Positions 10,494-57,433 of a stretch of 64,000 nt of DNA are shown one piece after another. The translations under genes were made by a program, and so were the position numbers. The stretch is from Calditrichota bacterium. Lineage in GTDB: Bacteria > CLD3. Location: positions 5,735-69,734 of the forward strand of contig QQUF01000045.1 in the NCBI GenBank assembly GCA_008501735.1, in the 5' to 3' direction. How positions within the stretch are numbered: the stretch's first letter is position 1; each line of letters begins with the position of its first letter. The notes below the pieces were generated by a model that had not been told where the DNA came from, ran no database searches, and was given only the letters and a program-made list of their open reading frames with translations.

Positions 10494-10654
10494 TCTTTTA
10501 GCCTAAATTATTGAATTTAAAATTTTTACTTTTTGCACTTTAGTATTTTTATAAAACTTTTACAAGAAAATTTTCAATTGGATGTAATTTCAGTTTTTAA
10601 TTTGTGAAAACATAATTTCTGTTTTATGTTTTTCTACAAATTTTTAAAACAAAG

Positions 10655-13600
10655 ATGTTTATGCCTTACAAAATCATTTCAAAAATTGCATCTGGAACTT
10701 TCGGAACAGTTTACAAAGCTCAAGAATCAACTAAAGGTGAATTCTACGCACTAAAATTAATTCACGAAAATTACAAAACCCCTATAGAACTGAAACGAAT
10801 CAAACGAGGTTTTGAAACTGCACAAAAAGTCTCACACCCAAATTGTGTTAAAATGATTGAATGGTACGAGGAAAAAGACCAAATCGGTTTTGTGATGGAA
10901 TTTGTGGATTCCGTAGGGAACAAAAATCTTTGTTCCCTACAAAATAAAATCTCAAAAATCATTCAAATTTCAAATGGACTTGAAGCACTTCACTCAAGAG
11001 GAATAATTCACAGAGACCTAAAACCTTCAAATATTCTTGAGGATAAAAACGGACAAATTAAAATCACAGACTTTGATTTGGTTAAAACACAAGAGGCTTC
11101 AACAATTACAAATTCAAAATCGTTTTTGGGAACAGTAAAATTCTCTTCCCCCGAACAGTGCAAAGATTCAAGCAAAATTGACCACAGAAGCGACCTTTAC
11201 TCACTCGGAATAATTTTTTATAAACTTCTAACTAACAGATTTCCTTTTGATGGAGATTCCGTAACAAATATTATTCTTGGACATATAAGAACTCCTCTGA
11301 TTTCTCCGACTCAATTTAATCCCGAAATCCCAATTGAGATTGAAAATGTTGTCAAAAAATTATTAGCAAAAAATCGAAATGACAGGTTCAATTCGGCAAA
11401 AGAAGTAGTCGAAAAACTCCACGTATTTTTAGAAACTCCAACCGAAACTCAAATCCAAACTTCAAGTGATTTTCTTCTTTATCCAAGATTTATCGGAAGA
11501 GAAAATGATTTTAAGAAACTTGAAAAATCATTTTCAAAAACTTCGGAAAGAAAACCACAGTTTGTTTTGATTTCAGGCAAATCGGGAAGTGGTAAGACCC
11601 AACTTTGGAAAGAATTTAAAGAAGGATTTTCTGATAGAGAAACACTTTACCTTAACACAAAATGCAAGGAAAATTCCACAAGTCTTGAACCGTTAAGAGA
11701 AGTTTTATTTCAATGTTTAGAGATTTTGGAAGGATTTTCCGACAATGAAAAACTTCCCTATTTTGGGAATTTCTGTAGAGACTTGGAAATTATTTTACCG
11801 CAAATTTCACAACTTAGCTTTTTTGAAAAACTACCTCAAACCGTAAAACTTTCTCAAGAAGATGGAATTTTTAGATTGTTTGAGGCAGTAGTAACCTTGC
11901 TCAAAAATTTGCAGAAAGAAAAGATATTAGTTTTGTTTTTTGACGATTTACAATGGGCAGATTCGCAAACAACTAAATTTTTACACTTTCTACAAAACAA
12001 CTTTAAAAATGAAAAACTTTTGTTTGCAGGAACTTTAAGACCAAATTTTTCTAAATCCGAACTCAAAGAGAATTTTATAGAAAATTGCTCCCAAATAGAA
12101 CTTGAGTCTTTAACTCTTGGGCAAGTAAAAGAAGTGTTGACTTCAATGCTCGGACAAGTTGAACCTGTAGAAACCAATTTTGCACAGTTGATTTTGGAGA
12201 AGACGGAAGGAAATCCACTTTTTATTCAAGAAATTATGTTTCACTTATTGGAGCAGAAGAAAATTTATAAGAAAAAAAATAAGTGGGTTCTTTCTGAAAG
12301 TGAGATTTTGTCCGAAGAATTACCAAAAAGTATTCATTCGACAATTACAAAAAGAATGGAAGTTCTTCCAAAATCGGTTAAGAACATTTTGCAGATTGCT
12401 TCGGTAATTGGTAAAAGTTTTGATTTTGAATTACTCAAAATTCTTTTGCCAAATTTATTGGAAGTCGAAATTCAAAAAGCACTTTTAAAATCTTGTGAAG
12501 AAAATTATTTGACATCATTTTCAGAGAATTATGAATTTTATCACGACTCAATTCGTGAGACTTTAGAGAAACAAATTCAGTCAAAGAATAAAATTAAATT
12601 CCACAAACAAATTGCGAAATATCTCGAAAGAAAGTTTGACGGTGAAAACGAAGATTTGATTTTACAGCTTGCACATCATTTTTACGAAGCAAAATTAAAA
12701 CAAAAAGCAAAGAAGTATTGTTTGTCTGCAAGTAAGGTTGCTGAAAAAAAATACTCAATCTCAAATGCCATTGATTTTTTGACAAAAGCTATTGAATTAG
12801 AAGTAGATAAAGTCAAAATCATTTCTTTGACGATAAAAAAAGCACTTCTTATGAGAACTTTGGGTGTTCCTAACGAACCTTTGAAGATTGCAAAAAAGGC
12901 ACACAAGCTTTCATTAGAATTGAATGATGAGAATTTAATTGTAGATTCTCTTTTAGTAGTAGGCAACGAAGAAATCCAAAACTTTTTGTTTGAAGAAGGT
13001 TTTGCATCTTTAAATGAAGGATTGAAAATTTCTAAGAAGTTAGGAGATGAAACAAGACTTTCAAAAGCCTTGTTTAAGCTAGGTCAATATTACACAATGA
13101 AAGGTGATTTTGAAGAATCAAATTCTTATTGCCAAAAAGCACTAAAGTTAGCGATAAGTAATGGTTTAAAAGAGCTGGAAATGAAAGTCAATTTTAATAT
13201 TGCAGTTAATTTCCAAAATATTTGGGAATTTGAAAAAGCCTTAAAATACTTAGAAAATAGCATAGAACTTTCTAAAGAATTAAAATTTATCTCAGAATCA
13301 ATTTTTTATGAGACTTCTAAAGGAGTAATTTTAAGAAACTTAGGGAAACTCGAAGAATCTTATAACCTTTTTCTAAAAAATCTTACGAAAACCCAAAAAT
13401 ACGGATTTTATGAAGGAATAATTACAGCAACTTTCGGGATTAGCAATTATTTTTTCATAAAAGCCAATTACTCAAAATCAATTCCTTATTTGGAAAAAAG
13501 TATCTCTATTGCCGAAAAAATTAATGACCCAAAAGCCCTTTTGGAAGGCTTCCAAAACTATTCTTCAGTTCAATTTTTAATGGGAAATTTTGAAAAAAGT

Positions 13601-15706
13601 AATGAGTGCTTAAGAAAAGTTTGGATACTTGCAAATACTTCTAATACAAAAAAAGATTTTGCAACTTATTATAAAACAAAAGGCTTAAATCAATTTGCTC
13701 AAAAAGAGTTTGAAGCATCTGCTGAATCATTTTCCAAATCAATTCCTTTTAGAAATAATGACTATTCGGTCGGAGGAGTTTTGTTTCTCAAAGCAAATTC
13801 GCTTTTTGAACTTGGTGATTTGGAAAGTGCACAAAAAGAAAACAAACAAGCAAAAAACTTAGCAGAAAAAGTAAACGACCTTCAAACAATTACCAAATCC
13901 AAAATCCTTTCTCTAAAAATTGATTTTAACTTCGGTTTGCAAAAAAAAGCATTGGAAGGTTTGTTAGAAATTACTGAAACAGAAAAAAATGAGAAATTAC
14001 TTGCAACAGCACTTTTTGAGTTTTGTTCACTTTTTGCAAAAAATCAAAATCTTACTTTGCTCCCCGGCAAAAAAATAAATTTTGAAAGTTACAGAAAAAG
14101 AACACTTGAGCTTTTCCGAAAATTAATCCAAAATGACGAAAGTTTTGAGCTTAAAGAAAAACTAATCATTCTTGAAAACCTCAAAAATGAATCGGGAATC
14201 TTTCATTCAGGTTTCTTAAACTCACTTGTTCCTTTGATGGAACCCGAAACAATTTTGAGCGAATCAGTTGAATACCTAACTACGCAAACACAATCTAATA
14301 ATTGCTTTATTGTCCTTAGAAATAAAATAACAGGAAAATTTGAACCTTGTTTCTTTTCCAAAAATTACGAAGACAAAGAAATTGATTTTAGTCAAACGAT
14401 TTTGGAGGAAGCAATTAGAACCAATCAATCAATTTTGGTAGAAAATGCTTTGGATTCCGAGAAATTCAAAAGTAATGAAAGTATCATTGGTAAAATTTTC
14501 CTTTCTGTAATTTCCGTTCCATTTGGGAAAGATGGTGAAGCAATCGGAGCAATTTATTTAGATAGAACAAATCCTGAAAATGATGTTTACCAAAATTCCG
14601 ACTTAGAAAAGGTAAAAGGAATCGGTAAAGTTTTGTTGCCTGTAATCCAAAAACAAAACGAAAACCTAACTTTAAAAATCAAATCTCAAATTCAAGAATT
14701 AGGAATTTTTATCGGTAACAGCCCAAAAATGCAAAAAGTTTATGAAGAAATTGAAAATGCTGCAAACTACAATTTCCCAGTTTACATTTTTGGAGAAACA
14801 GGAACAGGAAAAGAACTTGTTGCAAATGCTTTACACAAACTTTCACCGCGAAGAAATGAGCCTTTTGTAGCGTTAAACTGTTCGGCAATTCCAAAAGACT
14901 TAGCAGAAAGCGAACTTTTCGGACACAAAAAAGGAGCTTTTACAGGAGCTACTTTTGATAAAAAAGGTGTTTTTGAATTAGCGGAAAATGGAACTCTTTT
15001 GCTCGATGAAGTTGGCGACCTTAGTTTGGACAACCAAGCAAAACTACTTAGAGTCATTCAAGAAAAAAAGCTAAGAGTAATCGGTTCTGAAAAAACCACG
15101 AAGGTAAATGCAAGAATCCTTGTTGCCACTCACAAGAACTTAGAAGAGGAAGTGCAAAAAGGGAATTTCCGTGAAGATTTGTTACACCGATTAGATGTTT
15201 TGAAAATATTAGTTCCACCACTAAGGGAAAGAATTGAAGACATTCCACTTTTGGCGTTTCACATTTTGGAAAAATTCAATTTGGAATCAGGTAAAAAAAA
15301 CAAAGGGCTTTCCAAAGATATTATTAAGGATTTTGAAAATTATAAATGGAAAGGAAATGTCAGAGAGTTAGAAAACAGAATTATCAAAGCCTCAGTCAAA
15401 AAGAAAAAAGATGTGCCTTTGACATTAAAAGATTTTGATTTTCTAAATCCCAAAAAGTCTGAAAAAGTAATTCAAATTACCCCTAACGAATCTCAAAATC
15501 TAAATTCTGAAAACCTAATTAATTTGGTTCACAAATTAGAAGGTGAAACAATTTATGAAAAATTAGCAACTGTCGAAAAAGCAATTATTACCCAAGCATT
15601 GAATGAGTACAACTGGAATAAAACAAAAGTATCCGCGAAGCTTGGAATTAGTAGAATGCAAATCAACAGAATAATTGCACGTTTTAATCTTGTGAAAAAA
15701 AGTTGA
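10655..15706 (+). CDS. giant multidomain regulator: Ser/Thr protein kinase - MalT/LAL-type P-loop NTPase - TPR - GAF - sigma-54 activator AAA+ - Fis-type HTH
   Basis: 1683 aa. Kinase motifs: ASGTFGTVYKA, YALKLI, HRDLKPSNIL, ITDFDL (DFG-like), SSPEQ (APE-like). Walker A GKSGSGKTQLW and Walker B LVLFFDDLQWAD (LAL-type). TPR-like central region. GAF-like (IGKIFLSVISVPF...GAIYLDR). Sigma-54 activator: GETGTGKELVANALH, ESELFGHKKGAFTGA (GAFTGA loop), LLDEVGDL, FREDLLHRLDV. C-terminal HTH KVSAKLGISRMQINRII. True start may be the second ATG at 10661 (MPYKII, matching the paralog). Confidence 0.85.
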   Translation: MFMPYKIISKIASGTFGTVYKAQESTKGEFYALKLIHENYKTPIELKRIKRGFETAQKVSHPNCVKMIEWYEEKDQIGFVMEFVDSVGNKNLCSLQNKISKIIQISNGLEALHSRGIIHRDLKPSNILEDKNGQIKITDFDLVKTQEASTITNSKSFLGTVKFSSPEQCKDSSKIDHRSDLYSLGIIFYKLLTNRFPFDGDSVTNIILGHIRTPLISPTQFNPEIPIEIENVVKKLLAKNRNDRFNSAKEVVEKLHVFLETPTETQIQTSSDFLLYPRFIGRENDFKKLEKSFSKTSERKPQFVLISGKSGSGKTQLWKEFKEGFSDRETLYLNTKCKENSTSLEPLREVLFQCLEILEGFSDNEKLPYFGNFCRDLEIILPQISQLSFFEKLPQTVKLSQEDGIFRLFEAVVTLLKNLQKEKILVLFFDDLQWADSQTTKFLHFLQNNFKNEKLLFAGTLRPNFSKSELKENFIENCSQIELESLTLGQVKEVLTSMLGQVEPVETNFAQLILEKTEGNPLFIQEIMFHLLEQKKIYKKKNKWVLSESEILSEELPKSIHSTITKRMEVLPKSVKNILQIASVIGKSFDFELLKILLPNLLEVEIQKALLKSCEENYLTSFSENYEFYHDSIRETLEKQIQSKNKIKFHKQIAKYLERKFDGENEDLILQLAHHFYEAKLKQKAKKYCLSASKVAEKKYSISNAIDFLTKAIELEVDKVKIISLTIKKALLMRTLGVPNEPLKIAKKAHKLSLELNDENLIVDSLLVVGNEEIQNFLFEEGFASLNEGLKISKKLGDETRLSKALFKLGQYYTMKGDFEESNSYCQKALKLAISNGLKELEMKVNFNIAVNFQNIWEFEKALKYLENSIELSKELKFISESIFYETSKGVILRNLGKLEESYNLFLKNLTKTQKYGFYEGIITATFGISNYFFIKANYSKSIPYLEKSISIAEKINDPKALLEGFQNYSSVQFLMGNFEKSNECLRKVWILANTSNTKKDFATYYKTKGLNQFAQKEFEASAESFSKSIPFRNNDYSVGGVLFLKANSLFELGDLESAQKENKQAKNLAEKVNDLQTITKSKILSLKIDFNFGLQKKALEGLLEITETEKNEKLLATALFEFCSLFAKNQNLTLLPGKKINFESYRKRTLELFRKLIQNDESFELKEKLIILENLKNESGIFHSGFLNSLVPLMEPETILSESVEYLTTQTQSNNCFIVLRNKITGKFEPCFFSKNYEDKEIDFSQTILEEAIRTNQSILVENALDSEKFKSNESIIGKIFLSVISVPFGKDGEAIGAIYLDRTNPENDVYQNSDLEKVKGIGKVLLPVIQKQNENLTLKIKSQIQELGIFIGNSPKMQKVYEEIENAANYNFPVYIFGETGTGKELVANALHKLSPRRNEPFVALNCSAIPKDLAESELFGHKKGAFTGATFDKKGVFELAENGTLLLDEVGDLSLDNQAKLLRVIQEKKLRVIGSEKTTKVNARILVATHKNLEEEVQKGNFREDLLHRLDVLKILVPPLRERIEDIPLLAFHILEKFNLESGKKNKGLSKDIIKDFENYKWKGNVRELENRIIKASVKKKKDVPLTLKDFDFLNPKKSEKVIQITPNESQNLNSENLINLVHKLEGETIYEKLATVEKAIITQALNEYNWNKTKVSAKLGISRMQINRIIARFNLVKKS
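10913..10940. repeat. perfect hairpin (10-bp stem, loop aaaatctt) embedded in the kinase-domain coding sequence
   Basis: gtagggaaca-aaaatctt-tgttccctac read directly from sequence; encodes VGNKNLCSL. Same position and same loop as the hairpin at 20074-20101 in the paralog, but a different stem sequence. Confidence 0.6.
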
Positions 15707-16570
15707 GTTTTAAACTTAACTTTTCTGGACTTTAAAACCTTTTTTATAATTCTTCGCCAAGTGAGCTTGATAAAAAGACTTTTAGAATGAATCGATAATC
15801 GAAAACTCGGACATTTTTCTATCATTCTAACTGATGTTACGCAAAAGAAAATAAGAACTCGGTAAAAGCTAAATTTTCTGATAAAATTTGACGTTGCTTT
15901 AACCACCCCATTTTTTCCTTTTCAGAAACTAAAGTTTCAAACGAAAAAATTCCTCTCCTTCAAAAGGGTAGAAAAAAACAAGTTGTGCTTTATACAACCG
16001 AAAACTCTCCTCCTTTACAAGGAGGAGACAGAAAACAAATTCAAGCGAAGCGTTAGAATTTTTTTCAGAGGTGGATTAAACACAAGTCAAAATAAAAAAA
16101 TCAAACTTTTCCTAATTTGCGTAACATCAGATTCTAAACTAACGTGAGTTTGAGAAAAAACTGAACTTTATCTAGCTCCTAACGCTCTTCGTAAGGGTTT
16201 TCTTTATGGAAGCCAAGATAAATATCTTTGAGAAAGGGCAACCACAAGGGTTTGCCCATACAATCTTTGTAAGAGCTTTTTTTCAAAAAATTATTTCTCG
16301 AACTCATCTTTATTCCCTCTTCAAAGTGTAACAGATTGTTCCACTTATAATTCCCATCTCATACTTTCTAACTTTTATTCTGCATTTAAACCCTACGACT
16401 AAAGACTGTAACAATTTGTTATAGCGACCGAAACACCTGTTTTTTCAATAACTTACAAACAGGAAAATCAAAAATGTAACAATTAGTTCCAAGTTCTTAG
16501 TTTAGCATCAATCTATTTTATTTGTTCTAAATATTTATTTATTAACAAATTATACTTTCAAATTCCCTTT

Positions 16571-16586
16571 TGGCATTGAGTTTGGA
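16571..16586 (+). promoter_or_regulatory. weak sigma-54-like promoter candidate (TGGCA-N6-TTGGA) upstream of the 16640 cargo gene
   Basis: tggcattgagtttgga matches the -24 TGGCA element and part of the -12 element (TTGG instead of TTGC), about 55 nt upstream of the ATG. Near-match only. Confidence 0.2.
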
Positions 16587-16639
16587 ACTAACAATTTTGT
16601 CAAACAACAAATTCATTACAAACCAAAGGAAACAAGACA

Positions 16640-18109
16640 ATGAAAAAACTTACAACTTCACTTATCACACTTAGCTTAGGGTTAACTTTAGCCTCAAATT
16701 CTTTCGCAATTAAAATGTATTGGAGTGATACTATAGATCATAAAATTCAACGAGCAAATTTAGATGGCTCAAGTGTAGAAGATTTAGTTTCAATTCCAGG
16801 TAATAGCGATATTTATGGAATAGCATTAGATATTAATAATTCAAAAATGTACTGGGCTGATTATGGAGAAGATAAAATCCAACGAGCGAACTTAGATGGT
16901 TCGAATGTAGAAGATTTGATAACAGTATTTGACTCTATATTTAACTTTGATCCTTTGGGAATTGCATTAGACTTAACAAATTCCAAAATATATTGGGTTA
17001 ATAATGGTGATAAGATAATGCGAGCAAATTTAGATGGCTCAAATGCGGAAGACATTGTCACCGGACTTAGTAGCGGAGTTGTAGATATAAATTTAGATAT
17101 TATAAATTCAAAAATTTATTGGAATGATGGTGGAACAGGTAAGATCCAAAAAGCAAATTTAGATGGCTCGAATGTGGAAGATGTCGTAACAGGAATAAAT
17201 TCTACTTATTTTATGGCTTTAGACCCAATAAATTCTAAAATATATTGGACAGGTTTTGATGCACACAAAATTGAACGAGCTAATTTAGATGGCTCAAATG
17301 TGGAAGATGTCGTAACAGGTTTAGATGAGCCGTTTGATATAACTCTTGATATTGCAAATTCCAAAATATATTGGACAGAAGCTGACAATAACAAAATCCA
17401 ACGTTGCAATTTTGACGGAACTAATGTTGAGGACCTTGTTACAGGATTATCGGAACCCGGTGCAATTGTTCTTGGTGTTCCTGACATTGCACTTTCAGTA
17501 GAACTTGCTTCTTTCTCCGCTCGCCAAATAGAAAACTCAATCCAACTCAATTGGTCAACAGCTTCCGAAACTGAAAACGAAGGTTTCAACATTTACAGAA
17601 AAATAAGTGGAAGTGAATTTGTCCAAATCGCTTCTTACAAAAGCCACAGAGAACTCAGAGGGCAAGGAAACACTTCTGTTGAGACAAATTACACTTTCAC
17701 TGACAATTCAAAATTACAAAACAATGAATTTTATACTTACGTAATTTCTGATGTTGAAACAAACGGACTTGAAACAAAGCACGAAGAAAATTCTCAAAGC
17801 GTCTTTTTTGAAATAAAAACTCAAGCTGTAAAAAGATTTGAGTTAGCTCAAAATTTCCCTAATCCTTTTAACCCAAGCACAACAATTTCTTACCAACTTG
17901 CCAAAGACACAAGAGTAAGTCTCAAGATTTACAACGAAAAAGGTGAATTTGTAAAAGAACTCACAAACGGCTTTCAGCACGAAGGTTCACACAATGCAGC
18001 TTGGGACGGAACAGATGAAAATGGAAAATCAGTTTCAAGCGGAACTTACTTCTACAAACTCCAAGCAGGAACTTTCACACAAACTAACAAAATGATTTTG
18101 TTGAAATAA
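16640..18109 (+). CDS. YWTD beta-propeller protein with T9SS C-terminal sorting domain (paralog)
   Basis: 489 aa; signal peptide MKKLTTSLITLSLGLTLASNSFA; repeated KMYWSD/KIYWVN...RANLDGSNVEDV blades; LSVELASFSARQIENSIQLNWSTASETENEGFNIYRK module; T9SS tail NFPNPFNPSTTISYQL...GTYFYKLQ. Confidence 0.8.
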   Translation: MKKLTTSLITLSLGLTLASNSFAIKMYWSDTIDHKIQRANLDGSSVEDLVSIPGNSDIYGIALDINNSKMYWADYGEDKIQRANLDGSNVEDLITVFDSIFNFDPLGIALDLTNSKIYWVNNGDKIMRANLDGSNAEDIVTGLSSGVVDINLDIINSKIYWNDGGTGKIQKANLDGSNVEDVVTGINSTYFMALDPINSKIYWTGFDAHKIERANLDGSNVEDVVTGLDEPFDITLDIANSKIYWTEADNNKIQRCNFDGTNVEDLVTGLSEPGAIVLGVPDIALSVELASFSARQIENSIQLNWSTASETENEGFNIYRKISGSEFVQIASYKSHRELRGQGNTSVETNYTFTDNSKLQNNEFYTYVISDVETNGLETKHEENSQSVFFEIKTQAVKRFELAQNFPNPFNPSTTISYQLAKDTRVSLKIYNEKGEFVKELTNGFQHEGSHNAAWDGTDENGKSVSSGTYFYKLQAGTFTQTNKMILLK

Positions 18110-18132
18110 ATTTGCTCTCTCCTCTTGTGAAG

Positions 18133-18151
18133 GCCTCATTCAAAATGAGGC
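18133..18151 (+). terminator. possible intrinsic terminator hairpin after the 16640 gene
   Basis: gcctcat-tcaaa-atgaggc inverted repeat just after the stop codon; trailing T-run is weak. Confidence 0.35.
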
Positions 18152-18192
18152 TTGCACTTTAATTAAAGATTTAAAATTTAGGAAACAAGGCA

Positions 18193-19665
18193 ATGAAAAA
18201 ACTTACAACAACACTCTTAACACTTAGTTTAGGCTTAACCTTAGCTTCAACTTCTTTCGCAGATAAAATGTATTGGACGGATTATGGAACAAAAAAAATC
18301 CAACGTTCTGACTTAGATGGTTCAAATATCGAAGACCTTGTTACAACAGGGTTAGGTTTTCCTTTTGGAATGACCTTAGATTTAACTAATTCCAAAATGT
18401 ATTGGGCGGATGGTTCGACAAATAAAATCCAACGTTCTGACTTAGATGGTTCAAATATCGAAGACCTTGTTACAACAGGGTTGAGTTTTCCTGTAGGAAT
18501 CACCTTAGATTTGACTAATTCCAAAATTTATTGGTCAAACTACGGTGACTTAAATATTCAAAGGTCTAATTTAGATGGCACAAATGTGGAAGAAGTAGTT
18601 ACAAATCTGGATACTCCTCTTGGAATTGATTTAGATTTAACAAATTCCAAAATTTATTGGGTTGACACAGGAACGAATAGAATCCAAAGAGCAAACTTAG
18701 ACGGTTCAAGTGTAGAAAATTTAGTTACATCAGGGGTAGATAATTGCAGATTTATTAAGTTAGATATAGCTAGCTCAAAAATGTATTGGACTGATACTTC
18801 AGCAGATAAAATCCAAAGAGCTAATTTAGACGGTTCTAATGTGGAAGATTTAGTTACTACAGGATTAAGTTCCCCTGTAGGTTTAGCTTTAGATATTCCA
18901 AATTCGAAAATGTATTGGACTGATACTTCAGCAGATAAAATCCAAAGAGCAAACTTAGACGGTTCTAATGTGGAAGATTTAGTTACTACAGGACTAAGTT
19001 CTCCTTCTGCAATCGCACTTAATCTTACAGACGCACCACTTTCGGTAGAATTAAATTCTTTCTCTGCTCGTCAATTTGAAAATTCAATCCAACTTAATTG
19101 GTCAACAGCTTCCGAAACTGAAAACGAAGGTTTCAACATTTACAGAAAAACAAGTGGAAGTGAATTTGTCCAAATCGCTTCTTACAAAAGCCACAGAGAA
19201 CTCAAAGGACAAGGAAACACAACATTTGAGACAGGTTACACTTTCACTGACAATTCAAAATTACAAAACAGTGAATTTTACACTTACGTAATTTCTGATG
19301 TTGAAACAAACGGAGTTGAAACCAAGCACCAAGAAAATTCTCAAAGCATAAAATTTGTTTTTGATGAAGAAATTTCACAAACAAAACTTGACTACATTTT
19401 AGCTCAAAATTTCCCTAATCCTTTTAATCCAAGCACAACAATTAATTTTCAAGTTGCGAAAACCCAAGATGTTAGACTTGCAGTTTATAATTTAAACGGA
19501 AAACTTGTGAAGGAACTTGTCAACGAACCGAAAGCCAAAGGCTCACACAATGCAGTTTGGGACGGAACAGATGAAACCGGAAAATCTGTCTCAAGTGGAA
19601 CTTATTTCTACAAAATCTCGGCAGGCACTTTCACACAAACTAACAAAATGATTTTATTAAAATAA
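18193..19665 (+). CDS. YWTD beta-propeller protein with T9SS C-terminal sorting domain (paralog with near-identical internal blade repeats)
   Basis: 490 aa; same architecture as 16640..18109; 5' region including the ribosome-binding context and signal peptide is homologous to the preceding gene. Confidence 0.8.
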   Translation: MKKLTTTLLTLSLGLTLASTSFADKMYWTDYGTKKIQRSDLDGSNIEDLVTTGLGFPFGMTLDLTNSKMYWADGSTNKIQRSDLDGSNIEDLVTTGLSFPVGITLDLTNSKIYWSNYGDLNIQRSNLDGTNVEEVVTNLDTPLGIDLDLTNSKIYWVDTGTNRIQRANLDGSSVENLVTSGVDNCRFIKLDIASSKMYWTDTSADKIQRANLDGSNVEDLVTTGLSSPVGLALDIPNSKMYWTDTSADKIQRANLDGSNVEDLVTTGLSSPSAIALNLTDAPLSVELNSFSARQFENSIQLNWSTASETENEGFNIYRKTSGSEFVQIASYKSHRELKGQGNTTFETGYTFTDNSKLQNSEFYTYVISDVETNGVETKHQENSQSIKFVFDEEISQTKLDYILAQNFPNPFNPSTTINFQVAKTQDVRLAVYNLNGKLVKELVNEPKAKGSHNAVWDGTDETGKSVSSGTYFYKISAGTFTQTNKMILLK

Positions 19666-19685
19666 ATTTGCTCTCTTACTAGAAT

Positions 19686-19720
19686 AGCCTGACAATTAAA
19701 ATTGTCGGGCTTTTTTGTTT
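19686..19720 (+). terminator. intrinsic terminator (hairpin plus T-run) after the 18193 gene
   Basis: agcctgacaatt-aaa-attgtcgggc stem (one G-U wobble) followed by ttttttgttttg. Confidence 0.6.
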
Positions 19721-19776
19721 TGTGAAATCTAGATTTCTGTTTTAAGTTTTCTAACCCAATTAAACAGAGATACAGA

Positions 19777-22700
19777 ATGCCTTACAAAATCATACGTAAA
19801 ATCGCCTCAGGAACTTTCGGCACAGTTTACAAAGTCCAGGAAACAACTAACAGTGAATTCTACGCCTTAAAATTAATCCACGAAAATTACAAAAGCCCTA
19901 AAGAACTGAAAAGAATCAAACGTGGTTTTGAGTCAGCTCAAATAGTATCACACCCAAATTGTGTAAAAATGATTGAATGGTATGAGGAAAAAGACCAAAT
20001 TGGTTTTGTGATGGAATTTGTAGATTCCGTAGAGACGCAAAATCTCGCGTATAGTGAAAAGAATAATTCCCTTGTAGAGACGCAAAATCTTGCGTCTCTA
20101 CAAAATAAAATTTCAAAAATAATTCAAATTGCAAATGGGCTTGAAGCACTTCACTCAACAGGAATCATTCACAGAGATTTGAAACCTGCAAACATTCTTG
20201 AAACCAAAGATGGTCAAATTAAAATCACTGATTTTGATTTAGTGAAACTTGACGATTCCTCCACTCTCACAGCTTCGGGAGCTTTCCTTGGAACTGCAAA
20301 ATATTCTTCTCCTGAACAATGCCAAAACTCTGCTAAAATTGATTTCCGTTCTGACCTTTACTCACTTGGAGTTCTTTTCTACCAATTAGTTTGTGGCAGA
20401 GTTCCTTTTGAAGGAGATTCATTGGCAGAAATTGCACTTGGTCACATTCGTACTCCACTAATTTCTCCAAAACAATTTGTTCCTGATTTACCAGAAGTTT
20501 TGAATACAGTAATTGCCAAACTCCTAAAAAAAAATCCAAAAGATAGATTTCAATCTGCTCAAGAAGTCTCAAAGATTTTAGATACTTTTTTGAAAGAAGG
20601 AAAAGTTGAAAACTTGGAAACTTTCGGTGATTTTCTTTTAACTCCGGGTTTCGTTGGACGAGGAAAAGAATTTTCAGAGTTGAGCAAAATCTTTTCAGAA
20701 ACAACTAACAAGCTGAAAACAATTCTAATTAGTGGTGAACAAGGAGTTGGAAAAACAAAATTGTGGAAAGAATTCAGACTTGGTTTACCAAAAAACTCAA
20801 CTTTAGTGTTTGAGACAAAGTGCAGACAAAATGGAAACACTTTTGAACCACTTCAAACAATTCTTGCAAAAGCATTAGAACAAATCGAGAAACTTTCTGG
20901 CAAAGAACAAGCTGAAAAAATTGGACGATTTGGAAAAGACCTTTGTAAGATTTTTCCACAACTTGAACAAAAATTTTTTTTTAAACATTTACTGGAAATT
21001 CCAGCTCTTGAGGGTATTGAATCAGAGCTTAGACTTTTTGAAGCATTTACAAATTTCCTAAATAATATTCAAAAAGAAAAACAGACTTTAGTTTTCTTTT
21101 TCGACGACTTACAATGGATTGATGAACTTAGTCTAAAGTTTCTTGGTTATTTAACAAGGAGTTTATCTAATAATTCAATTTTAGTTTTGGGAACTATTAG
21201 AAAAGAACAAATTGAAAATGTATTAGAAGAAATTGATGATTCTAAGATTCTCACTCTCGAAAATTTTGAATTAGAAGAAGTCCGTGAATTTCTCACAAAA
21301 ATGTTTGGCAAAGCTGACCCTGTAAACACAAGATTTTGTGAAGAAATTTTGAAACGCACAGGTGGAAATGTTTTGTTTGTTCAAGAGCTAATTTTTCACT
21401 TGTTAGAAACAAAGGAATTGAATAAAAGTGAGGGTGATTGGGATTTAGGTGAAGAATCTTTCACAAAACTAAAACTACCAAAATCAATTCAAAGTGTTGT
21501 TGGTGAACGTCTAAATTTCTTACCTAAAAATTTACTAAAGTTACTCGAAGTTGGTGCACTTCTCGGAAAGTTTTTTACAACGAAAGTAGTGGCAGAAGTC
21601 CTTTCTTTAGAAGAAAATGAAGTTGAAAGTAAATTAGCAAACTCGACTTTTGAAGGTATTTTAGAAAAATCGGAAAGTAATATTTTTGAATTCGTAAACG
21701 ACTCTTTTAGAGAAAGCCTTTCAAATTCGCTAAAACCAAATACCAAAAAGTCAATTCACAGAAAGATAGCAGTTTACTTAGAGAAGCGTTTTAATGAATT
21801 TGAAATTTTGGAAGAACTTGCTAATCATTACTTTGAAGCTGGTGTGAAGAAAAAAACTTTTAATTACTGTTTGAAAGCTGGAGTTTCTTTAAAAGAGGTT
21901 TATGACTATGCGAAAGCAGAAACATTTATTTCAAATGCAATTACTGCAATTGAAGCGAGAAATATTTCCGAAAGAATAAATATTTCTAACCTAAAGGCTG
22001 AATGCTTAGAAAAGTTGGGTGATTTTGAACAAGCCGAAAAAATTTATTCCCATAATTTAAAATTGGCATTTGATTCAAATTCTGAAAATGAAATAATAGC
22101 TGATATTTATTTTGCTTTGGGTAGAATTAATTCTGAATTATTTAATATTGAAAATACTCAAAAATATTTTAAACTATCTTTAAACCTTTACATCAAATTA
22201 AGAGATTTTAAATTTATAATTTTAATTCATAAAGAATTGTCTCGTTCATTTATTTATCAAAATAAATTTTCTGAAGCCCAAAAATATTTAGATTTAGCAT
22301 TAGAAGTTGCTGAAAGTAATAAAATTTATGATGAAGTGATTAGTTGTTATACTTACCAATGTACTATTCTTGGAAGTGTCGGAAAATTCGATGAGGTTTT
22401 GATTTATGCAAAAAAGATTAATGATTTTGAAGAAAAGCAAGGAAGTTCAAGGAAAGATTTTACGGGTTTAATTTTTCTCGGTTGGGTTTATAAAAACTTA
22501 ACAAATTTTGTAAAAGCATCTTTTTATTTTGAAAAAGCTGTTAAAAATTTAGAGAAGAACAGTTATTCTGATACATATTTAAGAGCGTTAAACGGTGTTA
22601 GCCTTTGTAATTTTGAATTAGGAAATTTTGAAAAAGCAATTGAATTCTCTTTGAAAACTATCAGACAAGCAATCCTAATTAAAGATTTTAGACAAGTAGG

Positions 22701-24834
22701 AAATTCTTACAACGACATTGCATTATTTTATACAACCTACGGAAACTTTGATGAAGCCTCTAAAATGCTTGACAAAAGCATTGAAGTATCAAGAAAAATT
22801 AATGATGAATTTCAAATTGCAAATTCATTTTATCTTTTGGGAGAGATTGAATTTTTTAAAAGCAATTTTTTAGAAGCGATTTCAAATTATGAAGAATCTG
22901 TTAAAATTTATAGTAAAATTGAAATGGAGTTCAAAGCTCCAATTTTATTATACAATCTTTCTAAGTCAAATTATAAACTCAGAAACTACCCAAAAGCATT
23001 AGAAAATATATCTAAAAGCCAAGAACTTGCCCAAAAATTTGAAAATGAGAATGTAATTTTCAATTGTCAAATTTTGAAAAATAAAATTGATTTTATGTTG
23101 GGAAATAAAGAGCAAGCAATTCAAAATATTTACTCTTTTATTCAATCTGAAAATGATGAAAGAAAATCAGCAATTTTAAGAATTTCATTCTGTAATCTTT
23201 TTGCAAAAGACCGAAGTTTGGGAATTTTGATTTCAGAGGATTTTGATTTTCAAGAATTTCTTTTAGAAACAAAAAGTTTAACTGAAAAGGTTCTGAAAGA
23301 GAAGTTTAATTATGAAATTTCTAAGGACTTAGAAGAACTGAAACTTCTTGAAAAACCTTCTATTAGCTTGGATTTAGATTTAATTTCCTCGTTTGTGAAA
23401 TGGATTGAACCTTCAAATCTTTTTAGCGAACTTTTAGAATTTTTGAAAAAACAAACAAATGCAACTTCGGCAATTCTTATTTTACAGAATCCAATTACCA
23501 AAAAATTTGAAATTGCAAGTTCAACGAATGAAATTTCAAATGAGGATTTAGATTTTAGCAAAGGTATTTTTGAAGAATCAATAAAAAATCATAAACCAAT
23601 TCTAATTGAGAATGCTTTAGAGAATCCAAATTTTAGTTCAAACCAAAGTGTTGTCGGTAAGATTTTCCTTTCGGTTTTAGTTGTCCCAGTAAGTCTAAAT
23701 AAAAAAGTTATTGGAGCAATTTACGTTGAACGCTCAAAATTGGAATTAGAAAAATTTAGAATCCCTGATTTGCAACAAGTCGAAAGAATTGCAAAACTTA
23801 TTTCACCGATTTTGCAAAAACAAAACGAAAACAAAGTTCTTAAAACTGAATCAGAAGTTAAAAAATTAGGAATCTTCATTGGTAACAGCCTAAAAATGCA
23901 AAAATTATATCAGCAAATCCAAAATGCTGCGACAGTTGATTACACAACTTACATTTACGGCGAAACCGGAACAGGGAAAGAATTAGTTGCAACTGCTCTG
24001 CACAAATTAAGTCTAAGAAAAGACAAACCTTTTGTAGTAATTAATTGCTCGGCAATTCCGAAAGATTTAGCTGAAAGTGAACTTTTCGGACATTCAAAAG
24101 GTGCGTTTAGTGGAGCAATTTCTGATAAAACAGGAAAATTTGAACTTGCAAACGAAGGAACACTTTTCCTTGATGAAGTCGCAGAATTATCTTTGGAAAT
24201 TCAAGCAAAACTGCTCCGAGCAATTCAACAAAAGGAAATTTGGCGAGTCGGTGGAAACAAAGGAATAAAAGTAAACATAAAAATCATTGTTGCAACTCAC
24301 AAAAATCTTAGCGAGGAAGTTCAGAAAGGTAATTTCCGTGAAGACCTTTTTCACAGATTAGATGTTTTGAAAATCGAAGTTCCTCCTTTGAGGGAAAGGT
24401 TAGAAGACATTCCACTTTTAGCAAATTCAATTTTAGAAAAAGTCAGTAAGGAGTTGAACAAAAAATTCTTGGGTTTCTCACAAAGTGGAATTAAATCTCT
24501 TTTTGAACAAAGATGGAAGGGGAATGTCAGAGAATTAGAAAATGTGATTACAAAATCAGTAATAAATCTTCAAATTGAAAAGTCATTAAGCGAAAATGAT
24601 TTATTCCCAAATCAAATTACCAAACGAAATTCAGATGAACCTTTAGAAGTAATCCTTAATGGAAAATCTTTTGATGAGAAATTAGAAAACTTGGGTAAAA
24701 AAATCTTGTTAACAAACTTAGAGTCCACAAATTGGAACAAACGGCAATCGGCAAGAGAATTAGGAATTAGTAGAAATAGGCTCAAACGTTTGATTTCTAA
24801 GTATGAGCTTGTTGAACCACATTCTTCACTTTAG
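19777..24834 (+). CDS. giant multidomain regulator, paralog 2: Ser/Thr kinase - LAL-type NTPase - TPR - GAF - sigma-54 activator - HTH
   Basis: 1685 aa; kinase motifs (ASGTFGTVYKV, HRDLKPANIL, ITDFDL, SSPEQ); Walker A GEQGVGKTKLW and Walker B LVFFFDDLQWID; TPR-like region; GAF-like (VGKIFLSVLVVPV...GAIYVER); sigma-54 activator (GETGTGKELVATALH, ESELFGHSKGAFSGA, FLDEVAEL, FREDLFHRLDV); C-terminal HTH (RQSARELGISRNRLKRLI). Confidence 0.85.
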   Translation: MPYKIIRKIASGTFGTVYKVQETTNSEFYALKLIHENYKSPKELKRIKRGFESAQIVSHPNCVKMIEWYEEKDQIGFVMEFVDSVETQNLAYSEKNNSLVETQNLASLQNKISKIIQIANGLEALHSTGIIHRDLKPANILETKDGQIKITDFDLVKLDDSSTLTASGAFLGTAKYSSPEQCQNSAKIDFRSDLYSLGVLFYQLVCGRVPFEGDSLAEIALGHIRTPLISPKQFVPDLPEVLNTVIAKLLKKNPKDRFQSAQEVSKILDTFLKEGKVENLETFGDFLLTPGFVGRGKEFSELSKIFSETTNKLKTILISGEQGVGKTKLWKEFRLGLPKNSTLVFETKCRQNGNTFEPLQTILAKALEQIEKLSGKEQAEKIGRFGKDLCKIFPQLEQKFFFKHLLEIPALEGIESELRLFEAFTNFLNNIQKEKQTLVFFFDDLQWIDELSLKFLGYLTRSLSNNSILVLGTIRKEQIENVLEEIDDSKILTLENFELEEVREFLTKMFGKADPVNTRFCEEILKRTGGNVLFVQELIFHLLETKELNKSEGDWDLGEESFTKLKLPKSIQSVVGERLNFLPKNLLKLLEVGALLGKFFTTKVVAEVLSLEENEVESKLANSTFEGILEKSESNIFEFVNDSFRESLSNSLKPNTKKSIHRKIAVYLEKRFNEFEILEELANHYFEAGVKKKTFNYCLKAGVSLKEVYDYAKAETFISNAITAIEARNISERINISNLKAECLEKLGDFEQAEKIYSHNLKLAFDSNSENEIIADIYFALGRINSELFNIENTQKYFKLSLNLYIKLRDFKFIILIHKELSRSFIYQNKFSEAQKYLDLALEVAESNKIYDEVISCYTYQCTILGSVGKFDEVLIYAKKINDFEEKQGSSRKDFTGLIFLGWVYKNLTNFVKASFYFEKAVKNLEKNSYSDTYLRALNGVSLCNFELGNFEKAIEFSLKTIRQAILIKDFRQVGNSYNDIALFYTTYGNFDEASKMLDKSIEVSRKINDEFQIANSFYLLGEIEFFKSNFLEAISNYEESVKIYSKIEMEFKAPILLYNLSKSNYKLRNYPKALENISKSQELAQKFENENVIFNCQILKNKIDFMLGNKEQAIQNIYSFIQSENDERKSAILRISFCNLFAKDRSLGILISEDFDFQEFLLETKSLTEKVLKEKFNYEISKDLEELKLLEKPSISLDLDLISSFVKWIEPSNLFSELLEFLKKQTNATSAILILQNPITKKFEIASSTNEISNEDLDFSKGIFEESIKNHKPILIENALENPNFSSNQSVVGKIFLSVLVVPVSLNKKVIGAIYVERSKLELEKFRIPDLQQVERIAKLISPILQKQNENKVLKTESEVKKLGIFIGNSLKMQKLYQQIQNAATVDYTTYIYGETGTGKELVATALHKLSLRKDKPFVVINCSAIPKDLAESELFGHSKGAFSGAISDKTGKFELANEGTLFLDEVAELSLEIQAKLLRAIQQKEIWRVGGNKGIKVNIKIIVATHKNLSEEVQKGNFREDLFHRLDVLKIEVPPLRERLEDIPLLANSILEKVSKELNKKFLGFSQSGIKSLFEQRWKGNVRELENVITKSVINLQIEKSLSENDLFPNQITKRNSDEPLEVILNGKSFDEKLENLGKKILLTNLESTNWNKRQSARELGISRNRLKRLISKYELVEPHSSL
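20074..20101. repeat. perfect hairpin (10-bp stem, loop aaaatctt) embedded in the kinase-domain coding sequence, preceded by a partial direct copy at 20029-20050
   Basis: gtagagacgc-aaaatctt-gcgtctctac read directly; a 22-nt near-copy gtagagacgcaaaatctcgcgt lies 45 nt upstream; together they encode an insertion (VETQNLAYSEKNNSLVETQNLASL) relative to paralog 1. Confidence 0.6.
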
Positions 24835-24900
24835 TAAAGCATTACAGCAAAAGGATCTAATACGAACCACCATAAATTCAATAATTTAAATTATTTATAA

Positions 24901-24960
24901 AAAAGGGTCTAGAGTGAACCCAATGATTTTAAAATCATTGGGTTCACTCTAGACCCTTTT
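24901..24960. terminator. 60-bp perfect palindrome (probable bidirectional terminator or protein-binding site) downstream of regulator paralog 2
   Basis: aaaagggtctagagtgaacccaatgatttt immediately followed by its exact reverse complement aaaatcattgggttcactctagaccctttt; flanked by an A-run on the 5' side and T-run on the 3' side. Confidence 0.55.
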
Positions 24961-25137
24961 TTTGTTTAAAGGAACAATGGGCTTGAATCAAATTATTGAT
25001 TTTACACAACTTATACAACCTTTGGAAAATTTGGCACAGAATTAGTAACTACTTTGAGGTAATTAATTACATAGCCTTTCGTCTCGTAGTTTTATTGCTA
25101 CGAGGCGATTTATTAATTAAAACTAAGGAACTAAAAA

Positions 25138-26613: not shown

Positions 26614-26694
26614 ATTATCAGATTTAAAGTTGGAAATTGGAAAAGAAGCGATATTGGAAAATTTAAATTCTAAACAACAATAGGAATTAACAAA

Positions 26695-33488: not shown

Positions 33489-33518
33489 TTTGAATTCTTT
33501 TTAAGTTTAGAGTGAATT

Positions 33519-37427: not shown

Positions 37428-37468
37428 TTTTAAGTTATTTGAGTTTTGAGTTTGATTTTTTGAACTAA

Positions 37469-57424: not shown

Positions 57425-57433
57425 CTTTTGCTC

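What the first reader, a model, noticed from the sequence alone, without database searches (positions are those of the whole stretch)
10655..24834. Giant regulators fusing a Ser/Thr kinase, a MalT/LAL-type STAND NTPase, TPR, GAF and a sigma-54 activator with HTH
Two ~1685-aa paralogs (10655..15706, 19777..24834) and a third at 60005..64000 combine in one polypeptide a Hanks-type kinase, a LAL/MalT-type P-loop NTPase (Walker B hhhhDDLQW), TPR repeats, a GAF domain, a complete sigma-54 enhancer-binding AAA+ module with GAFTGA-type loop (GAFTGA, GAFSGA, GSFTGA) and a Fis-type HTH. The N-terminal two thirds resemble PknK/MalT-like signalling STAND proteins; the C-terminal third is an NtrC-like activator lacking a receiver domain. 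That would make a one-component activator whose usual phosphorylation input is replaced by a kinase/STAND/GAF integrator. I do not recognise this as a characterised regulator class. The kinase-NTPase-TPR layout also loosely recalls STAND immune sensors, but the sigma-54 and HTH modules argue for transcriptional control.
Basis: partly seen in the sequence, partly recalled or inferred. Interest (0 to 1): 0.85.

Follow-up and report, generated by a model that had tools for sequence, protein, structure and literature searches.

The report
Kinase–STAND–GAF sigma-54 activator family
Three very large cytoplasmic regulators in this Calditrichaeota genome each fuse a protein kinase, a MalT-like molecular switch, a long repeat sensor and a GAF domain to a complete sigma-54 transcription activator; they belong to a widespread family I found no study of, and they probably switch on the secreted-protein genes next to them.

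Summary
ORFs 10655-15706 (1683 aa) and 19777-24834 (1685 aa) are intact. A third copy (60005-64000, minus strand) runs off the window. Each encodes a Hanks kinase, a MalT-clade STAND NTPase, a ~27-helix TPR solenoid, a GAF domain, a sigma-54 AAA+ module and a Fis-type HTH. Pfam, AlphaFold models (pLDDT 87-89), Foldseek and hhalign all support this.

It is not an assembly artefact. At least 107 protein clusters share the architecture, from Calditrichaeota, Cloacimonetes, Gemmatimonadetes, Thermoanaerobaculia and complete 5.5-6.3 Mb genomes. Catalytic residues of all three nucleotide-binding modules are nearly invariant. The TPR and HTH regions diverge most between paralogs.

Downstream of these genes, here and in three related loci, lie -24/-12-type elements (TGGCAY-N5-TTG). 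One window site is preceded by three 17-bp palindromes, whose type and spacing recur in a homologous locus. The adjacent genes mostly encode type IX secretion cargo.

Best reading: one-component enhancer-binding proteins whose receiver domain is replaced by a kinase/STAND/TPR/GAF input module. The activation mechanism is inferred. I found no literature on this architecture. It is a new variant of a known kind, of moderate interest.

The parts
10655..15706 (+). Regulator 1 (p1, 1683 aa; NCBI locus tag DWQ06_12280): kinase-STAND-TPR-GAF-sigma54 AAA+-HTH
   Evidence: Intact ORF. Domain order from Pfam. 100% match to a Calditrichaeota MAG protein. The start is probably ATG 10661.
10667..11413 (+). 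p1 Hanks-type Ser/Thr kinase domain (res 5-253)
   Evidence: Pkinase 171 bits. Nearest solved structures are StkP, Stk1 and PknB. K34, D121, N126, D139 and T152 are conserved across the family. The alpha-C Glu is replaced by Gly and DFG by DFD.
11486..12544 (+). p1 STAND NTPase (NOD plus helical and winged-helix parts, res ~278-630)
   Evidence: AAA_16 89 bits. Walker A is invariant in 104/104 sequences and Walker B is [DE]D. AlphaFold pLDDT 89. Foldseek top hit is PH0952 STAND-TPR 6mfv.
12545..14179 (+). p1 TPR-like solenoid of ~27 helices (res ~631-1175), presumed sensor
   Evidence: AlphaFold secondary structure. TPR Pfam hits. It is the least conserved region between paralogs, at 18-22% identity.
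14207..14569 (+). p1 GAF domain (res ~1185-1305)
   Evidence: Pfam GAF 22.5 bits. hhalign against a bona fide GAF gives probability 98%, E 1.5e-13. The model has alpha/beta topology.
14594..14698 (+). 35-residue linker helix between GAF and AAA+ (res 1314-1348)
   Evidence: AlphaFold model, helix 315-349 of the segment.
14711..15415 (+). p1 sigma-54 interaction AAA+ domain plus lid (res 1353-1587) with GAFTGA loop
   Evidence: Sigma54_activat 236 bits. Foldseek matches NtrC1, LuxO, ZraR, FleQ and NifA at rmsd 1.4-2.5 A. Walker A, G-F-GA and DE are invariant in 104/104.
15563..15670 (+). p1 Fis-type HTH (res 1637-1672)
   Evidence: HTH_8 36.8 bits against a cutoff of 22.
16327..16491 (+). Three 17-bp palindromic sites TGTAACA-N3-TGTTCCA (16327-16343, 16407-16423, 16475-16491); candidate enhancer (UAS)
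   Evidence: The same motif type occurs at nearly the same distance from the -24 element in homologous locus L013 (-95 there, -96 here).
16571..16585 (+). Candidate -24/-12 element TGGCAT-N5-TTGG, 69 nt before ATG 16640
   Evidence: The -12 GC is not canonical.
16640..19665 (+). Two T9SS-cargo beta-propeller genes (LDL-receptor class B repeats plus Por_Secre_tail); presumed targets of p1
   Evidence: The regulatory link is inferred from position.
19777..24834 (+). Regulator 2 (p2, 1685 aa; DWQ06_12295), same architecture: kinase 3-262, AAA_16 292-470, GAF 1213-1346, Sigma54_activat 1368-1534, HTH_8 1636-1676
25032..25046 (+). Candidate -24/-12 element TGGCAC-N5-TTAGT, 106 nt before ATG 25138 (weak -12)
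   Evidence: It shares TTGGCAY-N5-TWGKAAC with the 16571 site.
25138..28944 (+). T9SS-cargo genes (LDL-B propeller; FG-GAP); presumed targets of p2
   Evidence: The link is inferred from position.
60005..64000 (-). Regulator 3 (p3), truncated by the window end inside the kinase C-lobe; STAND, TPR, sigma54 AAA+ (GSFTGA), HTH

Best explanation
These are cytoplasmic, one-component sigma-54 enhancer-binding proteins (bEBPs). The usual N-terminal receiver is replaced by a ~1,330-residue input module made of a PknB-like Hanks kinase, a MalT-clade STAND NTPase, a ~530-residue TPR solenoid and a GAF domain.

Shown:
- The six-domain architecture and its folds.
- Near-invariance of the catalytic residues of the kinase, the STAND P-loop and the AAA+/GAFTGA module across about 100 homologs.
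- No transmembrane segment.
- Paralogs diverge most in the TPR and HTH regions.
- Sigma-54-type -24/-12 elements, and at one window site palindromic upstream sites, lie directly downstream of the regulator genes and in front of co-directional genes that mostly encode T9SS-secreted proteins.

Inferred:
- Each regulator binds palindromes through its HTH and activates the adjacent sigma-54 promoter.
- In the resting state the ADP-bound STAND is closed by its TPR sensor, as in PH0952 and MalT. The GAF domain plus the long linker helix hold the AAA+ domains in a non-hexameric state, as in NorR, NifA, NtrC1 and DctD.
- A ligand or protein bound by the TPR or GAF domain drives ADP/ATP exchange and STAND oligomerisation. 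This brings the AAA+ modules together so that the hexamer forms and remodels sigma-54 RNA polymerase.
- The kinase is an RD kinase with a conserved S/T-x-T activation loop. It autophosphorylates, or phosphorylates the regulator in trans within the oligomer, to tune or lock the state.
For: Architecture and folds.

Family breadth and non-artefact status. 107 of the 120 best clusters carry both Pkinase and Sigma54_activat. Named sources are Calditrichaeota, Cloacimonetes, Gemmatimonadetes and Thermoanaerobaculia, and several members come from 5.5-6.3 Mb complete contigs.

Residue conservation: K34 98/98; HRD-Asp 100/101; DFG-Asp 101/101; activation-loop T152 81/101; STAND GxxGxGK[ST] 104/104; AAA+ Walker A, the G-F-GA positions of the GAFTGA loop (G1427, F1429, A1432; G1431 103/104) and DE 104/104.

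Paralog divergence: kinase 72%, AAA+ 64%, TPR 18-22%, HTH 34%. No hydrophobic segment.

Cis elements:
- Window 16571 TGGCAT-N5-TTGG and 25032 TGGCAC-N5-TTAGT.
- Three palindromes at 16327, 16407 and 16475.
- L005: two perfect TGGCAC-N5-TTGC sites between the regulator and a T9SS C25 peptidase gene.
- L003: TGGCAC/T-N5-TTGA before both downstream transcription units, one of them T9SS cargo.
- L013: TGGCAC-N5-TTGT preceded by TGTAACAAAATTGTTACG at -95. The window's proximal site is at -96.

Enrichment: 6 of the 12 TGGCAY-N5-TTG matches in 558,108 scanned positions fall in the 2,925 nt of regulator-downstream intergenic DNA. About 0.03 would be expected by chance.
Against: - No experiment exists for any family member, so the activation mechanism rests entirely on analogy.
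- The two window promoter candidates lack the canonical GC at -12. With up to 2 mismatches, the canonical pattern is not enriched in the window as a whole (40 found, 32 expected).
- The relaxed pattern and the palindrome pattern were defined after seeing the sites.
- Gene neighbourhood is not conserved across the family. L001/L015, L002, L014 and L017 have no such promoter or target. L016 has only a 1-mismatch site 377 nt upstream of the next gene.
- T9SS cargo genes are frequent in such genomes, so adjacency could be partly chance.
- rpoN was not seen, because only 64 kb was available.
- In p1 and p2 the kinase lacks the alpha-C glutamate and has DFD for DFG, so catalysis is uncertain in this clade.
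- STAND oligomer stoichiometry need not match an AAA+ hexamer.
Confidence: 0.6

Rival explanations
1. Dual-output signalling protein. The STAND/TPR switch controls two independent outputs: phosphorylation of other proteins by the kinase (as PknK does with VirS) and sigma-54 activation. The kinase does not regulate the EBP moiety.
For: Kinase-STAND-TPR proteins without any sigma-54 part are the closest relatives of the N-terminal two thirds. These include P0102, P0104-P0107 and P0115, and P0022 is named PknK by NCBI. In STAND proteins the N-terminal domain is typically the effector. Kinase catalytic residues are conserved.
Against: The fusion order and full length are conserved in at least 107 clusters across phyla, which argues for functional coupling. 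No conserved partner or substrate gene such as an FHA protein or a phosphatase is nearby.
Confidence: 0.2
2. In the Calditrichaeota/Cloacimonetes clade, which includes the window copies, the kinase domain is catalytically impaired. It then serves as a nucleotide-binding regulatory or dimerisation module, and regulation is purely allosteric.
For: The alpha-C Glu is replaced by Gly or Ser, and DFG by DFD, throughout this clade (18 sequences). The Thermoanaerobaculia clade has a degenerate G-loop and HLD.
Against: The beta3 Lys, HRD Asp, catalytic-loop Asn, DFG Asp and activation-loop Thr are retained. The kinase is the most conserved domain between p1 and p2, at 72% identity.
Confidence: 0.15
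3. A STAND immune sensor (Avs/NLR-like anti-phage system) that uses transcription as its effector.
For: The kinase-NTPase-TPR layout loosely recalls defence STANDs. PADLOC kinase models (PD-T4-6, mad6, MkoA) match the kinase domain.
Against: PADLOC matches are domain-level only: a generic kinase and the RtcR/PspF-type AAA+. None of the 25 best-scoring PADLOC matches covers the STAND or sensor region. Neighbours are housekeeping or secreted-protein genes, not defence islands. The Foldseek best hit is the MalT-clade signalling STAND PH0952.
Confidence: 0.03
4. Artefact: a frameshift, read-through or assembly chimera joining a kinase/STAND gene to an EBP gene.
For: None found.
Against: There are three copies in one window, and homologs of the same length come from independent assemblies including complete genomes. 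Base composition is uniform.
Confidence: 0.01

Closest known systems
GAF-containing bacterial enhancer-binding proteins (NifA, NorR, FhlA)
   Same: The C-terminal ~500 residues have the same GAF - linker - sigma-54 AAA+ (GAFTGA) - Fis-type HTH order. The best NCBIfam hits are NifA (344 bits) and NorR (341-349 bits). The AAA+ fold matches solved EBPs.
   Different: Scores are below the equivalog cutoffs (528 and 476). About 1,180 extra N-terminal residues (kinase, STAND, TPR) precede the GAF domain. No nif or nor genes are nearby.
MalT-clade STAND NTPases with TPR sensors (PH0952, MalT, LAL regulators)
   Same: P-loop NOD with a hhhhDD Walker B, helical and winged-helix parts, then a TPR solenoid. 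The Foldseek top hit is 6mfv, PH0952. There is a weak TPR_MalT Pfam hit.
   Different: The output is not a LuxR-type HTH. It is a second, AAA+-type oligomeric ATPase that acts on sigma-54. A kinase is fused at the N-terminus.
PknK-type Ser/Thr kinases (kinase-AAA_16-TPR; M. tuberculosis PknK)
   Same: The N-terminal two thirds have the same domain order. NCBI names the truncated homolog P0022 'PknK'.
   Different: PknK ends after the repeat region and acts on a separate transcription factor (from my own knowledge, not tested here). In these proteins the transcription activator is part of the same polypeptide.
HstK-type hybrid kinases (Ser/Thr kinase-AAA_16-GAF-HisKA-HATPase) of cyanobacteria
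   Same: As I recall it, the same kinase-STAND-GAF input is joined to a different output. This comes from memory and was not tested here.
   Different: No HisKA or HATPase_c in these proteins. The output is sigma-54 activation.
FHA-domain EBPs of Myxococcus xanthus, regulated in trans by Ser/Thr kinases
   Same: Both link Hanks-kinase signalling to sigma-54 activators. This rests on established knowledge (Jelsbak et al. 2005), recalled and not tested here.
   Different: There the kinase is a separate protein read by an FHA domain. Here the kinase is fused in cis and no FHA domain is present.

Membership tests
Bacterial enhancer-binding proteins (sigma-54 activators) | Sigma-54 interaction AAA+ domain with Walker A/B | tested here: met
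   PF00158 scores 229-236 bits against a cutoff of 20.2. GETGTGKE and LDE are invariant in 104/104. Fold matches NtrC1, LuxO and ZraR.
Bacterial enhancer-binding proteins (sigma-54 activators) | GAFTGA (L1) loop that contacts sigma-54 | tested here: met
   GAFTGA, GAFSGA and GSFTGA in p1, p2 and p3. G1427, F1429 and A1432 are invariant in the family; G1431 is 103/104.
Bacterial enhancer-binding proteins (sigma-54 activators) | C-terminal Fis-type HTH | tested here: met
   PF02954 scores 36.8, 26.1 and 23.7 bits against a cutoff of 22.
Bacterial enhancer-binding proteins (sigma-54 activators) | Acts on a -24/-12 promoter from upstream binding sites | tested here: inconclusive
   Window candidates are imperfect at -12. 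Related loci have perfect or near-perfect sites, and the palindrome type and spacing are conserved. No binding or transcription data exist.
Bacterial enhancer-binding proteins (sigma-54 activators) | rpoN present in the genome | not testable with these tools
   Only 64 kb of a 359-kb contig was available, and no RpoN gene lies in the window.
NifA / NorR equivalogs | Score above the curated NCBIfam cutoff | tested here: not met
   NifA scores 334-345 bits against 528.85. NorR scores 331-349 bits against 476.
STAND NTPases, MalT clade | P-loop NOD with Walker A and hhhh[DE]D Walker B | tested here: met
   AAA_16 scores 89-96 bits in p1 and p2. Walker A is invariant in 104/104 and Walker B is conserved. 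p3 deviates with CEEFQL.
STAND NTPases, MalT clade | NOD-helical-winged helix followed by a repeat sensor; fold similarity to a solved member | tested here: met
   AlphaFold pLDDT 89, pTM 0.75. Foldseek top hit is 6mfv PH0952, E 4.8e-15 over 728 columns.
LAL (large ATP-binding LuxR) regulators | C-terminal LuxR/GerE-type HTH | tested here: not met
   No GerE hit. The C-terminus is Sigma54_activat plus HTH_8.
Active Hanks-type Ser/Thr kinases | Beta3 Lys, HRD Asp, catalytic Asn, DFG Asp | tested here: met
   K34, D121, N126 and D139 are present and at least 98% conserved.
Active Hanks-type Ser/Thr kinases | Alpha-C Glu and the canonical DFG glycine | tested here: not met
   p1 and p2 have Gly at the alpha-C Glu position and DFD. 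This is clade-wide in Calditrichaeota and Cloacimonetes.
PknK-type kinases | Kinase + AAA_16 + TPR with no further output domain; orthology to M. tuberculosis PknK | not tested
   Only the architecture-level resemblance and NCBI's name for P0022 are available. No direct comparison with Rv3080c was made, and extra GAF, AAA+ and HTH domains are present here.
Anti-phage STAND systems (Avs and similar) | Match of the STAND/sensor region to a defence model; defence-type effector | tested here: not met
   The 25 best-scoring PADLOC matches of each protein are confined to the kinase and the AAA+/HTH parts; 12-13 weaker matches per protein were not listed.

The most novel reading that the evidence does not exclude
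These proteins are a widespread, unstudied class of sigma-54 activators with three nucleotide-dependent switches in one chain: a Hanks kinase, a STAND NTPase and an AAA+ domain. In this reading, ligand-gated STAND oligomerisation, rather than two-component phosphorylation, nucleates the AAA+ hexamer. The fused kinase sets or locks the state. In FCB-group bacteria the family controls expression of type IX-secreted surface proteins.
Probability: 0.3. Interest if true: 0.7.

Novelty: new variant of a known kind. Interest (0 to 1): 0.55.

Why it matters
bEBPs are the textbook case of activators gated by a small N-terminal sensor such as a receiver, GAF, PAS, V4R or CARF domain. Here the gate is a whole PknK/MalT-type signalling machine.

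This offers a natural system for asking how one oligomerising ATPase (STAND) controls another (AAA+). It also gives a cis-fused counterpart of the kinase-to-EBP cross-talk known in myxobacteria.

The family occurs in several poorly studied phyla: Calditrichota, Cloacimonadota, Gemmatimonadota and Acidobacteriota. It is expanded to at least six copies in this MAG, so it is probably a major regulatory device there. A link to T9SS cargo would add to what is known about how secreted surface proteins are regulated in FCB-group bacteria.

Tried and rejected
- Literature. Eight full-text searches and targeted reads found no description of the architecture. The myxobacterial kinome paper (Perez et al. 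2008) could not be opened, so prior mention there is not excluded.
- Genome context of the closest homologs. P0002, P0003 and P0005 could not be fetched.
- GTDB scan. The scan with clade-specific kinase peptides returned only 10 loci, and the window's own MAG was not among them.
- Organism names. Cluster look-up gave no names for the members from complete genomes.
- Canonical sigma-54 pattern. Allowing 2 mismatches, it is not enriched in the window as a whole. The hit at 42227(-) lies antisense inside a lyase gene and was rejected.
- Regulator 2 and regulator 3. No convincing UAS was found for regulator 2, and no -24/-12 element downstream of regulator 3.
- Rfam. No RNA family was found in the window.
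- Sequence-only PDB search with the GAF region found nothing, so hhalign was used instead.
- Whole-model Foldseek of the C-terminal model was dominated by the AAA+ domain and could not report on the GAF domain.
- The defence-system reading was rejected.
Full report
**Observation.** The window contains two intact ORFs exactly as reported: 10655..15706 (1683 aa) and 19777..24834 (1685 aa), both on the plus strand. A third copy lies on the minus strand from 60005. It stays in frame to the last base of the window and begins in the kinase C-lobe, so it is cut by the window edge. Pfam places the same domains in the same order in p1 and p2: Pkinase, AAA_16, TPR, GAF, Sigma54_activat with AAA_lid_14, and HTH_8. 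p3 shows the part that lies in the window. The window comes from a Calditrichaeota MAG. p1 and p2 are identical to NCBI proteins DWQ06_12280 and DWQ06_12295 on a 359-kb contig.

**Anatomy.** Two AlphaFold models built with family alignments are confident.
- Residues 1-1190 give pLDDT 89 and pTM 0.75. The model shows a kinase, a P-loop NOD, helical and winged-helix parts, and about 27 helices of TPR-like solenoid from ~631 to ~1175.
- Residues 1000-1683 give pLDDT 87. The model shows the end of the solenoid, an alpha/beta domain at 1185-1305, a 35-residue helix at 1314-1348, the AAA+ domain and the HTH.

Foldseek against the PDB puts the STAND-TPR protein PH0952 (6mfv, MalT clade) first for the N-terminal model, at E 4.8e-15 over 728 columns. 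PknB and Stk1 kinase domains follow. For the C-terminal model it returns NtrC1, LuxO, ZraR, FleQ and NifA AAA+ domains at 1.4-2.5 A. The Pfam GAF call was borderline at 22.5 bits. An hhalign of the family profile against a bona fide GAF, from window gene 2181..3818, gives probability 98% and E 1.5e-13. No segment is hydrophobic enough to span a membrane.

**A real family, not an artefact.** A search of 5.8 billion proteins returned 2,877 hits. Of the best 120 clusters, 107 carry both Pkinase and Sigma54_activat and are about 1,500-1,800 aa long. Named sources are Calditrichaeota, Cloacimonetes, Gemmatimonadetes, Thermoanaerobaculia and a 'Desulfuromonas sp. SDB' MAG, and several members sit on complete 5.5-6.3 Mb contigs. 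This MAG alone has at least six copies: P0001, P0004, P0005, the partial P0019 and P0020, and p3. Automatic names are generic, for example 'sigma 54-interacting transcriptional regulator', 'protein kinase' and 'Nif-specific regulatory protein'.

**What selection preserves.** I aligned 103 full-length homologs plus p3.
- Kinase: beta3 Lys 98/98, HRD Asp 100/101, catalytic Asn 99, DFG Asp 101/101, and an activation-loop Thr (T152) 81/101. T152 sits in an S/T-x-T motif at the positions of PknB T171/T173.
- STAND: GxxGxGK[ST] 104/104 and the [DE]D Walker B.
- AAA+: Walker A, the G-F-GA positions of the GAFTGA loop (G1427, F1429, A1432; G1431 103/104) and DE, all 104/104.

All three nucleotide-binding modules are therefore maintained. 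Clades differ in the kinase. The Calditrichaeota/Cloacimonetes clade, including p1 and p2, has Gly or Ser instead of the alpha-C Glu and DFD instead of DFG. Gemmatimonadetes members are canonical. Thermoanaerobaculia members have a degenerate G-loop and HLD.

Between p1 and p2, identity is 72% in the kinase and 64% in the AAA+ domain. It falls to 18-22% in the TPR solenoid and 34% in the HTH region. This is the pattern expected for paralogs that sense different signals and bind different DNA sites.

**Surroundings and cis elements.** Both complete regulators are followed by co-directional genes for secreted proteins with type IX secretion C-terminal domains. These are LDL-receptor class B beta-propellers at 16640, 18193 and 25138, and an FG-GAP protein at 26695.

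Between p1 and its neighbour lie three 17-bp palindromes, TGTAACA-N3-TGTTCCA, at 16327, 16407 and 16475. A -24/-12-like element, TTGGCAT-N5-TTGG, lies at 16571, 69 nt before the ATG. After p2 a TTGGCAC-N5-TTAGT element lies 106 nt before ATG 25138. Both window sites lack the canonical GC at -12, and on their own they are weak evidence.

Related loci strengthen them.
- L005 (homolog P0021): two perfect TGGCAC-N5-TTGC sites lie between the regulator and a T9SS C25 peptidase gene.
- L003 (P0008): TGGCAC/T-N5-TTGA sites precede both downstream transcription units, one of which encodes T9SS cargo.
- L013 (P0006): TGGCAC-N5-TTGT precedes a small exported protein. It is itself preceded by TGTAACAAAATTGTTACG at -95, compared with -96 for the window's proximal palindrome.

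Across the window and all loci, TGGCAY-N5-TTG occurs 12 times in 558,108 positions. Six of those fall in the 2,925 nt of regulator-downstream intergenic DNA, where about 0.03 would be expected. That pattern was relaxed after seeing the sites. With the strict canonical pattern, 2 of the 4 perfect matches still fall there. Other family loci show no such arrangement (L001/L015, L002, L014, L017), or only a 1-mismatch site (L016). Local targets are therefore frequent but not universal.

**How it most likely works.** Identity as a sigma-54 activator is well supported. I infer that each protein binds palindromes through its HTH and activates the adjacent promoter.

For gating I rely on analogy.
- MalT-clade STANDs such as PH0952 and MalT are ADP-bound and auto-inhibited by their arm and TPR sensor. 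They oligomerise after inducer binding and nucleotide exchange.
- GAF domains of NorR and NifA, and the linker helices of NtrC1 and DctD, hold AAA+ domains in inactive states.

The simplest synthesis has three steps. A signal is read by the TPR solenoid, the GAF domain or both. This opens the STAND and oligomerises it. The AAA+ modules are thereby brought together into the active ring. The kinase is an RD kinase with a conserved activation-loop Thr, and it would phosphorylate itself or a neighbouring chain to tune this process. None of these steps has been tested.

**Rivals.**
- The kinase is an independent second output, as in PknK.
- The kinase is catalytically impaired in this clade and acts allosterically.
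- An immune-sensor reading is unlikely. The PADLOC matches listed (the 25 best of 37-38 per protein) cover only the kinase and AAA+ domains, and the neighbours are not defence genes.
- An artefact is excluded.

**Comparison and novelty.** The proteins meet the sequence and fold features that define bEBPs and MalT-clade STANDs; action on a -24/-12 promoter remains inconclusive and rpoN could not be checked. They fail the NifA and NorR equivalog thresholds, the LAL criterion (no LuxR HTH) and, in this clade, two canonical kinase features.

The nearest concepts are:
- NifA/NorR, for the C-terminal third;
- PknK and PH0952/MalT, for the N-terminal two thirds;
- HstK-type hybrid kinases, which as I recall have the same input with a histidine-kinase output;
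- myxobacterial FHA-EBPs, where the kinase acts in trans.

The last two come from memory and were not tested. Eight literature searches found no paper on the fusion, although the myxobacterial kinome paper could not be read.

I rate the finding a new variant of a known kind. Interest is moderate (0.55). Each module is familiar and the family is already in databases. Set against that, a STAND-gated, kinase-bearing sigma-54 activator has not, as far as I could find, been characterised, and it is mechanistically unusual.

Noticed in passing
window 60005-64000 (-) and 56205-59887 (-): The third regulator is followed on the same strand by ftsH, DUF4178, DUF350 and a PspA/IM30 gene. PspA is the classic sigma-54/PspF target in E. 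coli. No -24/-12 element was seen in the 117-nt gap before ftsH.
   Followed up: partly
window 29589-41377 (-): Three tandem paralogous genes of ~1300 aa each, with sortilin/Vps10-like and fibronectin type III domains.
   Followed up: partly
window 15831-15845 and 16116-16130: A perfect 15-nt inverted repeat pair 270 nt apart, inside the 933-nt intergenic region after regulator 1. It is unique in the window. It may be the ends of a small inserted element; this is unexplained.
   Followed up: partly
window 24899-24962: A perfect 64-nt palindrome (32+32, no loop) flanked by A- and T-runs, just after regulator 2. It looks like a strong bidirectional terminator.
   Followed up: no
window 10601-10632 and 19719-19750: Both regulator genes are preceded by TTTG-N20-TA(TG/AA)TTTT about 22-27 nt before the ATG. 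This resembles the Bacteroidetes -33/-7 promoter consensus (recalled from memory). The whole upstream stretch is conserved between the two paralogs, which suggests a tandem duplication of regulator-plus-cargo cassettes.
   Followed up: no
window 2181-3818 (-): A protein with cNMP-binding, GAF and HATPase_c domains but no detected HisKA domain.
   Followed up: no
L013 13902-16998 (-): The neighbour of homolog P0006 is a GGDEF-AAA_16-TPR protein, so the same STAND-TPR switch is joined to a diguanylate cyclase output in this lineage. P0092 combines GGDEF with the full kinase-STAND-sigma54 set.
   Followed up: no
L014 11059-14512 (+): Homolog P0009 is followed directly by two further sigma-54 activators: one of 707 aa with faint TPR hits (no kinase or AAA_16 hit listed), and one of 433 aa with AAA+ and HTH only.
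   Followed up: no
L005 6290-6304 (+); L007 2794-2808 (+): A perfect TGGCAC-N5-TTGC lies inside the L005 regulator gene, near codon 1084 and upstream of the GAF domain. This is possibly an internal promoter for a short GAF-AAA+-HTH form. Another perfect site lies 38 nt before a Lentisphaeria kinase gene.
   Followed up: no
L005 8270-8650 (+): An apparent short ORF with a strong RBS lies directly after the first perfect sigma-54 promoter. By eye, reading from the ATG at about 8311, it looked like a small PqqD-like peptide-binding protein. My translation call was out of frame by one base, so this is unverified.
   Followed up: partly
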